Shown here piece by piece: positions 21,601 through 24,600 of a stretch of DNA of 64,000 nt (the first letter of the stretch is position 1; each line of letters starts with the position of its first letter). The position numbers are program-made. The stretch lies in assembly GCF_048403405.1 (NCBI RefSeq), contig NZ_CP183129.1; one strand, given 5' to 3'. Source of the stretch: Escherichia coli. GTDB lineage: Bacteria > Pseudomonadota > Gammaproteobacteria > Enterobacterales > Enterobacteriaceae.

Positions 21601-24600
21601 TGCCCGCCGTTTTCTTTTTTTTTCGGAAAACTAATTTCTCATTGAGAGCACTTGCTTTTCTGCGCACAGTGTGCCTGTGACTTTATTTTATTAACACAGG
21701 ACAGAAAATGCGTATGAAAATTCTCCCGATATGTCTTGCCCTGACCTCACTGCTGTTGGGGGGCTGTGCAGATAAACCCTCCCGGCCTGCTGAACCGGTG
21801 GCTGATAGATACCGCGATTCTGGTCAACACCGGTCATGCCCAGCCGGTACTTCCGGACCTTTATCCATCAGCTGGGGCTGGTACAGTTACTGCCGGTGGG
21901 CGGACGTTATCAGGGGCGTACGGTGACGTTGCGCCTACCATAAAAGAGATGCCGTGATGAAAAACATAAGATTTGTGGTTTTACTGAGCGGGTGTCTGAT
22001 GACAGCGCCGCTGACAGCCACACAGTCTGTTTCCGGGGGGCAGATTGGCAGATTGAGGCGGGGAAATCGGCTAAGAGTCAGACTCAGTCATTGCAGTATG
22101 AGGCGCAGGAATGGGGACTGAGTGCGGAGGAGTATGCCCGTTTTGAAGCGCTGATGAAAGGGTGGCGCGGTATTCAGTCTCTCGGCCTGGATCCTCTGAC
22201 GACACTGGGCATTGAGGCCCGGTCAGATGAGGAGCGCTGTCGGCTGGCTGAAAAGTGGGTACAGCAGGAATTTGCCTGGGCAGAAAAAGAGCTGGCGTTT
22301 CAGCGGGAAGTGGATGCAGCCTAGAAACGGCTTTATGGTCAGATATTATCGGTCAGTCTGGGAACAGCCGGCTGAATCCGGTCTGTATTCTTTTTATTTA
22401 AATCAATTACACCTGTTAATCGATTAATAATATTAGTCGGAATAACTTTATCTTTATTAATAATAGCGAATACAGGCTGTCCAAAGCTATTTTGTTCAAT
22501 AAAATCGAGCCTTCCATCTTGAATATTATCAAGTGAAATAATAATTGCGGCAATATAAGAGAAGTCAGTATGTAGAATATTAACATATTTACGATGAGTT
22601 GAAATAGAGTCAGACATATCATAGCTGACTGCGACTTTATAATTTTTCATTTTTAATTCCTTTTTGGTAAAAAATCTTGCTGAAATATTAAGTGAAAATA
22701 TTTCATTTATTTATATTTATGTCATCACGGATATAAAATAATGTTATAGGTTGGTGGCTTTTATAATTTTAGTAATCTTTTTTTTAGCAAAATGACTAGG
22801 AATAAAAGCTGTTTAGCTGCACATTACTGTGCATAAAAACCAAGGATATGAATGTTCAATAAGAGCTCGTTATAACCACATTAAATGTGATATATAATGA
22901 TAAAGAGATTGACTATCCATTTGATGAAAATATGCAAACCACGTGATAGAAGCCAATAGAGAGATTATCTTTGAGCGCTGAAAAGATTAAAACTAAAACA
23001 TGAGAAATGTGAAAGCATCATTATATGTGTAATAAGTTTTATATGTGGTCAAAATCGGTTATTATTTTCTATTTTTGCATTCATTAATTGTTAAGGTATA
23101 TATAACAACTATAAGTTATATGTAATTAAATATCCGAATTATACTGTGATGCAGATCAAGGTATATCATTTAAAGAATGATTTTTCTTTAATTCATATAT
23201 TTGTTTTTTGTTATTTGTTGTTTTCTTTTTAACAAAAGAATAGGTGATTAATATAGTCGCCAAGTCTATGTTATAAATATTAATACAATGTATTTATGGT
23301 GCCTTTCCTATAATTAAAGATTATAAATTATTATCATTAATGGTTGCATTAATATATATTTATTTTCTAAATAATTATTTTAAAGTTTTTTAAATTTGCT
23401 TATATAGTCATTAAGATTAATAAAATATACTTTGAAATATATTCTGTATTACCTATTCCCTTCTATATCAATATAAATGAGTTTTACAATCAGTATAAAT
23501 TGTTAAAAATGATCGTTAAAAACGATTGTTATGTTTATATTGATGGTTTTAATCTATCAAAAAAATACATTATCGATCAATAATAACATATTAACATAAT
23601 TTATTTTTAGAAAGAAAATTATATCCATTAATTATATTTTAATTACATGAGGTTACATTTTAATAAATAATAAGTTTGTAATTTCAAATAAAGCTTCCGT
23701 ATTTTTCATGTTGGTGAATGTTATTAATTTTTTATTAAATAATGGCGTTTATATTTAATAATTTTAATAGAGTAGCACCTGTTTTTTATAGTTTTAATAT
23801 ATAAATTAAGGATATAAATACCCTCAATGAAGTTTATAGATTGATTTTTATGTTAGTAACCAAATAATGAAATTTAAAAATAATATTGCTTTAAGTACGG
23901 TACTGTCTGTTGCTATTTTTAACTCAGCAATGGCATATGACGGTACAATTAGTCTTACTGGATGCACTACTGGACAAAATGGATCTAGTAATGTGAAAGC
24001 TTTTTTTGAACCCGGAGCTAATACTGACTTTAATACGAACAAACTAAAAAATGCAAGCTCTGACGGAGCACAAAATGTTCAAATTCAGTTATTAAATAAC
24101 GATGGTACTACTGCTATTCAATTAGGGAAAGACTTTGTCGGACAGGATGTCCATTCAGAAGCTATTAATAGTGACGATGAAGCGACACTACGCTATATGG
24201 CCCAATATTATGCTACAGGAAAAGCAATTGTAGGGGATGTCATTTCTAGTGTTAATTACACTATTGCCTATGAGTAATAAATAATAATCGTGCGTTTTTA
24301 TTATCATTATTTACAAGGCAGCTCATCTGCACTGCTTTGTTCGGAGTTTCCATGAAAAAACTTTTCTTTTTCATGATGGCCGGCTTATTTTCTGTGTCAA
24401 GTTATGCTAATGTTGGGTACCTGAGTTATTTATCCTGAAAACTAGGAAGGTATTAATATTAAAATTAATAATGATGAATCTACTCCATCTTTAATTCAGT
24501 CCTGGATTGATACTGGTGATGCCAGTGTTGCTCCAGACTCAGTCAATGTTCCCTTTATTATTACTCCGCTTATATTTCGTATAGAACCTCACACAGGGCA

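What the first reader, a model, noticed from the sequence alone, without database searches (positions are those of the whole stretch)
21957..22324. Signal-peptide gene split by a frameshift at a G6 homopolymer
The signal peptide and the mature-protein body are in different frames, and the switch coincides with a run of six G at about 22033-22038. This could be decay, a sequencing error, or slipped-strand phase variation of a secreted ICE protein.
Basis: seen in the sequence. Interest (0 to 1): 0.35.

Follow-up and report, generated by a model that had tools for sequence, protein, structure and literature searches.

The report
Dead remnant of an ICE gene
The split gene is a broken, truncated leftover of a conjugation-module gene (TIGR03759 family) inside the mobile element ICEPm1. 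It carries several independent disabling lesions, so the frameshift beside the G-run is ordinary gene decay, not an on/off switch.

Summary
A signal-peptide ORF (ATG 21957, frame 0) and a body ORF (to TAG 22324, frame 2) are two halves of one gene. The switch lies at a G6 run, at 22035-22040 rather than 22033-22038.

The gene is the 5' 40% of a TIGR03759-family ICE gene. It sits at the left edge of the known "degenerate region" of an ICEPm1-type element in E. coli. The intact pilL-orf-TIGR03759 copy starts at about 63.7 kb and is only 86-90% identical.

The roughly 680-bp relic (21708-22378) has six lesions:
- a 4-bp GATA duplication in pilL';
- a 1.1-kb microhomology deletion;
- a 51-bp deletion;
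- a perfect 8-bp tandem duplication (GCAGATTG x2, 22040-22055) abutting the G-run, the most parsimonious cause of the frameshift;
- a TGG>TAG nonsense codon;
- 3' truncation at 22378, which removes the CxxC thioredoxin-like domain.

The frameshifted state is no sequencing error. It is in 8 of 9 E. coli assemblies checked, and its exact product is on 996 contigs. Rare frame-restoring alleles exist: G7, and loss of one 8-bp unit. G7 is one inherited haplotype, and every allele keeps the stop and the truncation.

Verdict: a pseudogene, already flagged as such by PGAP. Phase variation is not supported.

The parts
21596..21707 (+). Start of the duplicated backbone segment: the intergenic DNA upstream of pilL'.
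   Evidence: Self-BLAST matches 21596-21872 to 63593-63864 at 86%. The segment is colinear with the ICEPm2 backbone at 93%.
21708..21872 (+). pilL' 5' fragment, about 55 codons encoding a lipoprotein signal sequence. It is frameshifted by a 4-bp tandem duplication, GATAGATA, at 21804-21811.
   Evidence: Alignment to the intact pilL of ICEPm2 (90%) and of ICEPm1 (83%) shows a 4-nt gap.
21864..21872 (+). Junction of a deletion of about 1.1 kb. It removes the rest of pilL and most of the next ORF, at the 9-bp microhomology TCCATCAGC.
   Evidence: Both BLAST segments overlap on this 9-mer, which occurs twice in the intact loci.
21873..21943 (+). 3' end of the 246-aa ORF that follows pilL. It carries a 51-bp internal deletion at a 12-bp direct repeat, ACGTTATCAGGG (21904-21915).
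   Evidence: The overlapping BLAST segments are offset by 51 nt in both intact copies. ORF 21836..21943 ends ...GRYQGRTVTLRLP, matching the intact C-terminus.
21957..22034 (+). TIGR03759' codons 1-26 in frame 0: the signal peptide MKNIRFVVLLSGCLMTAPLTATQSVS.
22035..22040 (+). G6 homopolymer. Population alleles are G5, G6 and G7.
22040..22055 (+). Perfect 8-bp tandem duplication, GCAGATTG x2. It is the most parsimonious cause of the frame 0 to frame 2 shift. A rare allele with one unit is in frame.
   Evidence: One search gives the coordinates. One search shows L012 with one unit, and P0003 reads SVSGGQIEAGKS.
22049..22321 (+). TIGR03759' body in frame 2 (QIEAGKS...REVDAA). This is the N-terminal helical domain only. 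It has substitutions at family-invariant P77 and nearly invariant R96 and R109.
   Evidence: NCBIfam profile positions 2-81 of 200 at 102 bits, below the 126.4 cutoff. Lineage substitutions are and conserved columns.
22322..22324 (+). Premature TAG stop, where both intact homologues have TGG (the nearly invariant W124).
22325..22378 (+). Untranslated tail that is still homologous to TIGR03759 codons of about 125-142. Homology stops at 22378, the 3' truncation point.
   Evidence: GC content falls from 55% to about 26% just after this point.
22339..22650 (-). Adjoining unrelated relic: the N-terminal fragment of an ornithine, lysine or arginine decarboxylase (speF'). It reads through into the ICE relic and marks the start of the AT-rich degenerate cargo.
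   Evidence: Pfam PF03709 at 2.7e-13. PGAP annotation, with the speFL leader next to it.

Best explanation
The feature is a non-functional pseudogene fragment.

The window carries an ICEPm1-type integrative conjugative element in an E. coli chromosome. ICEPm1 looks like a mosaic of two related ICE backbones. The left backbone holds integrase, ParA, DnaB, ParB, TopB, the STY4534 protein and Rpn. It runs colinearly into pilL'-orf'-TIGR03759' and then breaks off at 22378. About 41 kb of degenerate and iron-acquisition cargo follows. A second, intact pilL-orf-TIGR03759-SLT-TraD... conjugation module starts at about 63.6 kb. The finding is therefore the dead end of the first backbone (inferred).

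Freed from selection, this stump has accumulated slippage and microhomology lesions:
- a 4-bp duplication;
- a 1.1-kb deletion;
- a 51-bp deletion;
- an 8-bp tandem duplication next to a G6 run, which separates the signal peptide from the body;
- a nonsense codon;
- radical substitutions at conserved residues.

The G-run and the 8-bp repeat are slippage-prone, so rare derived alleles exist (G7, G5, one unit). Two of these happen to restore the frame. Even so, they can encode only a 119-122-aa N-terminal stump without the CxxC thioredoxin-like domain.

Shown: the lesions, the allele distribution, the mosaic repeat structure and the truncation. Inferred: the order of events (in-frame ancestor, then 8-bp duplication, then rare G7 or unit loss), the two-ICE accretion origin, and the absence of function.
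For: - **Identity of the gene.** The body matches TIGR03759 only at profile positions 2-81 of 200, at 102 bits against a cutoff of 126.4. The intact copy scores 233.5 bits over positions 2-199.
- **Lesions.** They were mapped against two intact homologues.
- **Lost domain.** In the AlphaFold model of the intact protein, residues 39-127 are helical and residues 151-241 form a beta-CxxC-alpha domain. That domain matches secreted thioredoxin-like oxidoreductases such as 1lu4, 3raz and CcmG, weakly but consistently. The relic stops at residue 123-142.
- **Relaxed constraint.** The relic lineage has 10 nonsynonymous to 5 synonymous changes. The intact ICEPm1 copy lineage has 4 to 12 (Fisher p=0.03). 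The relic's changes hit invariant P77 and nearly invariant R96, R109 and W124.
- **Stability of the frameshifted state.** G6 with two 8-bp units is in 8 of 9 E. coli assemblies and in the P. stuartii and P. mirabilis reference genomes. The exact product is on 996 contigs, and near-identical variants are on 197, 98, 85 and 31 contigs.
- **G7 is one lineage.** All 13 G7 loci share the same context, and 10 of 10 with data carry A at 23973 against 0 of 5 others.
- **The one-unit allele is derived.** L012 shares derived states at 22020 and 22195 with the main two-unit clade. The early-branching two-unit locus L003 keeps the outgroup states.
- **Mosaic structure.** The relic is closer to the ICEPm2 copy (92%) than to its own element's intact copy (86-90%). 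A second diverged pair, the ClbS region at 14976-15239 and 32916-33179, lies in the same order.
- **Existing annotation and literature.** PGAP already labels the locus 'TIGR03759 family ... frameshifted; incomplete; missing C-terminus' in two genomes. ICEPm1 is described as having a 'degenerate region' between its replication and conjugation modules, and tandem ICE accretion has been observed (PMC11278526).
Against: - Two of the three derived alleles restore the reading frame, and the G7 haplotype has spread to at least 18 contigs in more than one species. This could hint at some benefit from an exported 122-aa stump.
- RefSeq also carries the frame-2 ORF as 'exported protein' WP_004239732.1.
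- The dN/dS contrast rests on few sites (p=0.03).
- No expression or read-level data were available.
Confidence: 0.9

Rival explanations
1. Slipped-strand phase variation: G6 to G7 slippage toggles export of a short secreted ICE protein.
For: The G-run sits at the frame switch. G5, G6 and G7 alleles exist in public assemblies. G7 gives an in-frame 122-aa product with the signal peptide (P0135).
Against: - G7 is perfectly linked to one flanking SNP, 10 of 10 against 0 of 5, so it arose once and was inherited rather than switching repeatedly.
- G6 accounts for at least about 98% of contigs across many species.
- The single G5 is in an assembly with other homopolymer indels and a frameshifted topB.
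- The ON product is stopped by TAG, lacks 60% of the family profile including the CxxC domain, and carries substitutions at invariant residues.
- From general knowledge, a tract of 6-7 G is short for a contingency locus in mismatch-repair-proficient Enterobacterales.
Confidence: 0.04
2. A sequencing or assembly error at a homopolymer in this particular window; the real gene is in frame.
For: Homopolymers are classic error sites. One assembly (elppa4) shows G5 along with other homopolymer discrepancies.
Against: The identical G6 state with two 8-bp units is in 8 of 9 complete E. coli genomes and in the reference genomes of two other genera. Its exact translation is on 996 contigs. Even in frame, the gene is stopped and truncated.
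Confidence: 0.01
3. Programmed -1 ribosomal frameshifting or transcriptional slippage on the G-run joins the signal peptide to the body.
For: A -1 shift within GGGGGG would give exactly the G7 product, SVSGGADWQIEA (derived from the sequence).
Against: In frame 0 the site reads TCC GGG GGG CAG, which is not a canonical X XXY YYZ heptamer. No Rfam element or notable structure was found. All intact homologues encode one uninterrupted ORF with a different linker. The product would still be the truncated stump.
Confidence: 0.02
4. The 110-aa frame-2 ORF (GTG 21992..22324, RefSeq 'exported protein') is a genuine, independently translated small protein.
For: It is annotated as a CDS in most RefSeq genomes. 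Its sequence is identical on 996 contigs.
Against: - Its first roughly 19 residues are an out-of-frame reading of a signal-peptide sequence, so it has no export signal of its own.
- The conservation reflects recent spread of a nearly identical ICE, since the flanking non-coding DNA is just as invariant.
- PGAP calls the same locus a pseudogene in other genomes.
- The relic lineage has a nonsynonymous excess.
Confidence: 0.03

Closest known systems
TIGR03759 (PFL_4693) family ICE protein of the intact conjugation modules: WP_000790124.1 in ICEPm1 and WP_001764963.1 in ICEPm2
   Same: There is 90-92% nucleotide identity over codons 1-26 and about 33-142. The signal peptide is of the same kind. 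The upstream neighbours (pilL and the 246-aa ORF) are the same.
   Different: The relic is frameshifted after the signal peptide, has a premature TAG, lacks the C-terminal 100 or so residues with the CxxC thioredoxin-like domain, and has lost its SLT and TraD downstream neighbours. It scores below the family cutoff.
The 'degenerate region' variable module of ICEPm1 (Flannery et al. 2009, as summarised in PMC11278526)
   Same: The location is the same, between the DNA-replication and conjugation modules and next to the iron-acquisition (nrp) cargo. It is full of partial and frameshifted genes.
   Different: I could not read the 2009 paper, so I do not know whether it describes this pilL'/TIGR03759' relic explicitly.
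Homopolymeric-tract contingency (phase-variable) loci, for example poly-G tracts in Neisseria, Haemophilus and Campylobacter surface genes (general knowledge)
   Same: A G-tract lies in the 5' coding region just after a signal peptide, and the tract length differs between isolates.
   Different: The tract is short (6-7). Variation is lineage-bound rather than recurrent. The 'ON' state has no intact product.

Membership tests
TIGR03759 family ICE protein (functional member) | Whole-protein score above the NCBIfam cutoff (126.4 bits), covering the 200-position profile | tested here: not met
   The frame-2 ORF scores 102.1 bits and the best-case in-frame G7 product 101.6 bits, both over positions 2-81 only. 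The intact copy scores 233.5 bits over positions 2-199.
TIGR03759 family ICE protein (functional member) | N-terminal signal peptide in frame with the body | tested here: not met
   The signal peptide is in frame 0 and the body in frame 2.
TIGR03759 family ICE protein (functional member) | C-terminal domain with the invariant C160-x-x-C163 (thioredoxin-like fold) | tested here: not met
   Homology ends at about codon 142. The two cysteines are invariant in 30 homologues. The model places a beta-CxxC-alpha domain at residues 151-241, with thioredoxin-like PDB matches.
TIGR03759 family ICE protein (functional member) | Synteny pilL - orf - TIGR03759 - SLT transglycosylase - ... - TraD | tested here: not met
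   The upstream neighbours survive only as fragments. Downstream lies a speF' fragment on the opposite strand.
Homopolymer-tract phase-variable gene | A simple repeat tract inside the 5' coding region whose length sets the frame | tested here: met
   G6 lies at 22035-22040, and G7 restores the frame.
Homopolymer-tract phase-variable gene | Recurrent, reversible tract-length changes (homoplasy across lineages) | tested here: not met
   All G7 loci with data share the 23973-A haplotype (10 of 10 against 0 of 5). G6 is on at least 1,400 contigs and G7 on about 18-24.
Homopolymer-tract phase-variable gene | The ON state encodes a complete functional protein | tested here: not met
   The TAG at 22322 and the truncation at 22378 are present in all alleles.
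Homopolymer-tract phase-variable gene | Within-culture length heterogeneity in reads | not testable with these tools
   No read data are available.
Programmed -1 ribosomal frameshift site | Slippery heptamer X XXY YYZ in the 0 frame, a downstream stimulatory structure, and conservation in homologues | tested here: not met
   The site reads TCC GGG GGG CAG, which is not canonical. There is no Rfam hit. Homologues have a single ORF.
ICEPm1-type ICE (context of the finding) | Integrase, ParA/DnaB/ParB/TopB replication module, TIGR037xx type IV secretion module, and nrp and taaP cargo | tested here: met
   RefSeq annotation of CRE287, whose copy is 100% identical over the 801 bases compared (21600-22400), shows these genes. 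The description is in PMC11278526.
ICEPm1-type ICE (context of the finding) | Integration next to tRNA-Phe | tested here: inconclusive
   No tRNA was found in the 64-kb window. The DNA to the left of the integrase is E. coli IS66 and phosphoethanolamine-transferase sequence. The right end of the element lies outside the window.

The most novel reading that the evidence does not exclude
The relic and the intact copy form a pair of 86-90% identical direct repeats flanking the roughly 41-kb cargo. Hybrid genes with the relic's 5' end and the intact 3' end are seen in public contigs (P0129 on 7 contigs, P0008, P0002). If these hybrids are real recombinants rather than assembly chimeras, cargo-less ICEPm1 derivatives carry the frameshifted 5' end on their only full-length TIGR03759 gene. 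In those derivatives, G6 to G7 slippage or loss of one 8-bp unit would decide whether a thioredoxin-like type IV secretion component is exported. That would make it a genuine switch on conjugation competence.
Probability: 0.03. Interest if true: 0.4.

Novelty: already known. Interest (0 to 1): 0.08.

Why it matters
It matters little biologically. The finding is a relic that marks where one ICE backbone was cut off when ICEPm1 was assembled from two related elements.

It has three practical uses:
- The RefSeq 'exported protein' WP_004239732.1 should be treated as a pseudogene fragment.
- The relic and the intact copy are diverged direct repeats around the nrp and degenerate cargo. They can confuse short-read assemblies and might mediate cargo loss.
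- The allele series (two units with G6; G7; one unit) is a convenient lineage marker for ICEPm1 epidemiology.

Tried and rejected
- **Closer intact relative.** I looked for a full-length gene with the one-unit or G7 linker, which would fix the ancestral state. The 5.8-billion-protein search found only relic alleles and hybrids. The genome-contig scan with a linker-spanning pattern found only relic (G6, two units) plus intact pairs, in P. stuartii NCTC11800 and P. mirabilis ATCC 29906.
- **Family function.** Pfam has no model for the family and no PDB entry is related by sequence. Only a moderate-confidence AlphaFold model (pLDDT 69) with weak thioredoxin-like fold matches was obtained.
- **RNA and regulatory signals.** Rfam found nothing in 20000-25000. 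Promoter and terminator scans did not exceed the shuffled expectation.
- **Literature.** Flannery et al. 2009 (PMC2772549) is not held, so I could not check whether they describe the relic.
- **Hybrid contigs.** I could not decide whether they are real recombinants. L023 joins the right end of the cargo to relic-type sequence, which suggests de Bruijn-graph chimeras. No hybrid occurs among the 13 complete E. coli genomes that carry the relic.
- **Recent duplication rejected.** The relic is not a recent intra-element duplicate of the intact copy. It shares more states with ICEPm2 than with its own element's copy: 16 sites against 6.
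Full report
**1. The observation**

- An ORF starts at GTG 21954 / ATG 21957 in frame 0. 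It encodes MKNIRFVVLLSGCLMTAPLTATQSVSGG... and runs to a stop at 22121.
- A second ORF, in frame 2, is open from 21992 to TAG 22322-22324.
- The frame-2 product matches NCBIfam TIGR03759 ('integrating conjugative element protein') at 2.6e-29. The match covers only profile positions 2-81 of 200 and scores 102 bits, below the 126.4-bit cutoff.
- The window has 13 runs of six or more G in 64 kb, so a chance coincidence with the frame switch is unlikely.

**2. Context**

The 801 bases around the finding are 99-100% identical to 13 complete E. coli chromosomes. In these genomes PGAP annotates one of two things here. Most carry a 110-aa 'exported protein' (WP_004239732.1). Two carry 'TIGR03759 family integrating conjugative element protein; frameshifted; incomplete; missing C-terminus'.

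The annotation of E. coli CRE287 (100% identical over those 801 bases) shows an ICEPm1-type element with these parts in order:
- integrase, ParA, DnaB-PI, ParB, STY4528, PFL_4669, TopB, STY4534 and Rpn;
- the finding;
- a speF' fragment, the speFL leader, fimbrial fragments, IS remnants, TonB receptors and the nrp NRPS/PKS cluster;
- an IS200;
- an intact pilL - 246-aa ORF - TIGR03759 - SLT - TraD... type IV secretion module, which includes taaP.

The DNA at 1-4400 is ordinary E. coli and IS sequence. [quoted passage not shown] Its relative ICEPm2 (E. coli M19 and others) lacks these modules.

**3. Anatomy against intact homologues**

I aligned 21700-22450 to the uninterrupted ICEPm2 locus (L004) and to ICEPm1's own intact copy. 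The relic shows six lesions.
- (a) pilL' keeps only about 55 codons and is frameshifted by a 4-bp tandem duplication (GATAGATA, 21804-21811).
- (b) About 1.1 kb is deleted between two copies of TCCRTCAGC (junction 21864-21872). This removes the rest of pilL and most of the next ORF.
- (c) A 51-bp deletion lies between 12-bp direct repeats (ACGTTATCAGGG, 21904-21915).
- (d) The linker after the signal peptide differs. The intact genes read TCCGGG(G/A)CAACCCGACCGGTTCAGATTGAGG. The window reads TCCGGGGGGCAGATTGGCAGATTGAGG, a net loss of 4 nt. It contains a perfect tandem duplication, GCAGATTG at 22040-47 and 22048-55, whose first base is the last G of the G6 run.
- (e) TGG (the nearly invariant W124) has become TAG at 22322-22324.
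- (f) Homology stops at 22378, about codon 142 of 244-247. GC content then falls from 55% to about 26%. A decarboxylase N-terminal fragment follows on the other strand (PF03709).

**4. What is lost**

The intact protein scores 233.5 bits over profile positions 2-199. The best-case in-frame relic scores 101.6 bits over positions 2-81.

An AlphaFold model built from 30 homologues (mean pLDDT 69) shows three regions:
- a helical N-terminal domain at residues 39-127;
- a disordered linker;
- a beta-CxxC-alpha domain at residues 151-241, with the invariant C160 and C163.

The best PDB matches are secreted thioredoxin-like oxidoreductases: M. tuberculosis DsbE 1lu4, 3raz, FetE, Etrx1 and CcmG. Their E-values run from 3e-3 to 0.2 over about 100 aligned residues, which is weak but consistent. 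The relic therefore lacks the presumptive catalytic domain. The thioredoxin-like assignment is an inference of moderate strength.

**5. Relaxed constraint**

I used the two intact copies to polarise changes. The relic lineage has 10 nonsynonymous and 5 synonymous substitutions. The intact ICEPm1 copy lineage has 4 and 12 (Fisher p=0.03). The relic's changes include P77L at an invariant column, and R96C, R109W and W124stop at columns at least 90% conserved.

**6. Population alleles**

A search of 5.8 billion proteins and look-ups of the encoding contigs found four states of the linker. All sit in the same relic context next to speF', and all end at the same TAG.
- **G6 with two units (this window).** The exact product is on 996 contigs, with single-residue variants on 197, 98, 85 and 31 contigs. 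It occurs in Proteus, Morganella, Providencia, E. coli, Klebsiella and Salmonella.
- **G7 with two units.** It is in frame (SVSGGADWQIEA, 122 aa) and found on about 18-24 contigs.
- **G6 with one unit.** It is in frame (SVSGGQIEA) and found on about 4 contigs.
- **G5 with two units.** It occurs once, in an assembly that has other homopolymer discrepancies and a frameshifted topB.

The GTDB representatives P. stuartii NCTC11800 and P. mirabilis ATCC 29906 both carry the G6 two-unit relic together with the intact copy. The frameshift is therefore not a sequencing error.

G7 is not a recurrent switch. All 10 G7 loci with data carry A at the position equivalent to 23973, whereas 0 of 5 other loci do.

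The one-unit allele also looks secondary. Its locus (L012) shares the derived bases at 22020 and 22195 with the main two-unit clade. The early-branching two-unit locus L003 keeps the outgroup bases at both sites.

In the G7 allele, the 'ADW' codons are an out-of-frame copy of the following 'QIE' codons. The duplication must therefore have come before G7. The most parsimonious history runs from an in-frame ancestor, through the 8-bp duplication that created the frameshift, to rare later slips, some of which restore the frame. This order is inferred. No intact gene with either in-frame linker was found.

**7. Origin of the relic**

The left backbone (17984-21872) is colinear with ICEPm2 at 93.3%, and the relic continues that alignment at 91.9%. 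The right-hand intact module (63593 onward) matches ICEPm2 at 92.4%.

The relic and ICEPm1's own intact copy are only 86-90% identical. At informative sites the relic agrees with ICEPm2 against the intact ICEPm1 copy 16 times, and with the intact copy against ICEPm2 only 6 times. This rules out a recent internal duplication.

A second diverged pair, the ClbS region at 14976-15239 and 32916-33179 (81%), lies in the same order. AlpA, DUF2857' and ArdC' fragments sit in the cargo.

The simplest reading is that ICEPm1 descends from two related ICEs that were joined and then trimmed. Tandem accretion of this kind has been observed in strain AR379 (PMC11278526). Under this reading the finding is the truncated end of the first backbone.

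**8. Rivals**

- **Phase variation** fails on three of its four defining features: recurrence, an intact ON product and tract behaviour. The fourth, read heterogeneity, cannot be tested here.
- **Programmed frameshifting** lacks a canonical slippery site, any detectable RNA element and conservation in homologues.
- **The 110-aa ORF as an independent gene** is unconvincing. Its N-terminus is an out-of-frame reading of a signal peptide, and its 'conservation' is matched by equally invariant flanking non-coding DNA.

**9. Verdict**

The frameshift is better attributed to an 8-bp tandem duplication abutting the G-run than to the G-run itself. The locus is an ordinary pseudogene fragment in the known degenerate region of a well-described ICE, and PGAP already flags it as such in some genomes. 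Interest is low.

Noticed in passing
window 21366-21435 (inside the Rpn-family gene 20603..21550): A perfect 12-nt tandem repeat, AAAAAGGTATCG x5.8, encodes GIEK units. Its copy number differs between strains, giving products of 303-319 aa. This is a true in-frame VNTR in an ICE backbone gene.
   Followed up: partly
window 21605-21614: A poly-T run in the Rpn-pilL' intergenic region differs by one T between otherwise identical assemblies. This explains the 801 versus 802 base match lengths.
   Followed up: yes
L019-L024 (public contigs), equivalent to window 21596-22366 joined to 65064 onward: These contigs carry hybrid full-length TIGR03759 genes, with the relic's frameshifted G6 5' end and the intact 3' end (P0129 on 7 contigs, P0008, P0002, and the reciprocal P0001). 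L020 is a P. mirabilis isolate contig that reads Rpn - pilL' - hybrid - SLT - TraD with no cargo. L023 joins the right end of the cargo to relic-type sequence, which suggests assembly-graph chimeras. Whether they are real recombinational cargo loss or artefact is unresolved.
   Followed up: partly
window 14976-15239 and 32916-33179; 21596-22372 and 63593-65536: Two pairs of diverged direct repeats (81% and 86-90%) lie in the same order. Together with AlpA, DUF2857', ClbS' and ArdC' fragments in the cargo, they suggest that ICEPm1 is a fusion of two related ICE backbones.
   Followed up: partly
window 14811-14914: A 36-bp tandem repeat (x2.9, 95% match) contains the palindrome TGTTTCCACTGGAAACA and lies between the STY4528 replication gene and ClbS. 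Related arrays lie in inverted orientation upstream of traD in ICEPm1 (about 67275-67383, beyond the window) and ICEPm2 (L004 7321-7889). They may be iterons or oriT-like repeats.
   Followed up: no
window 19807-19926: A 48-bp tandem repeat (x2.5, 78% match) lies in the TopB-STY4534 intergenic region.
   Followed up: no
window 22339-23100, minus strand: A 103-aa N-terminal fragment of an ornithine, lysine or arginine decarboxylase (speF') sits with the SpeFL leader peptide gene in DNA of 18-27% GC. It looks like a chromosomal fragment of a low-GC host captured in the ICE cargo. Its ORF reads through into the ICE relic.
   Followed up: partly
window 1-7047: ARAGORN finds no tRNA gene anywhere in the window, although ICEPm1 normally sits at tRNA-Phe. 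The integrase (5782..7047, minus strand) is flanked by a TPR protein annotated LapB, then by E. coli IS66 and phosphoethanolamine-transferase DNA.
   Followed up: no
E. coli CRE287 NZ_CP166757.1 4022998-4025144 (outside the window): traD of the intact conjugation module is annotated as frameshifted in this otherwise identical copy, so that copy may not be able to transfer.
   Followed up: no
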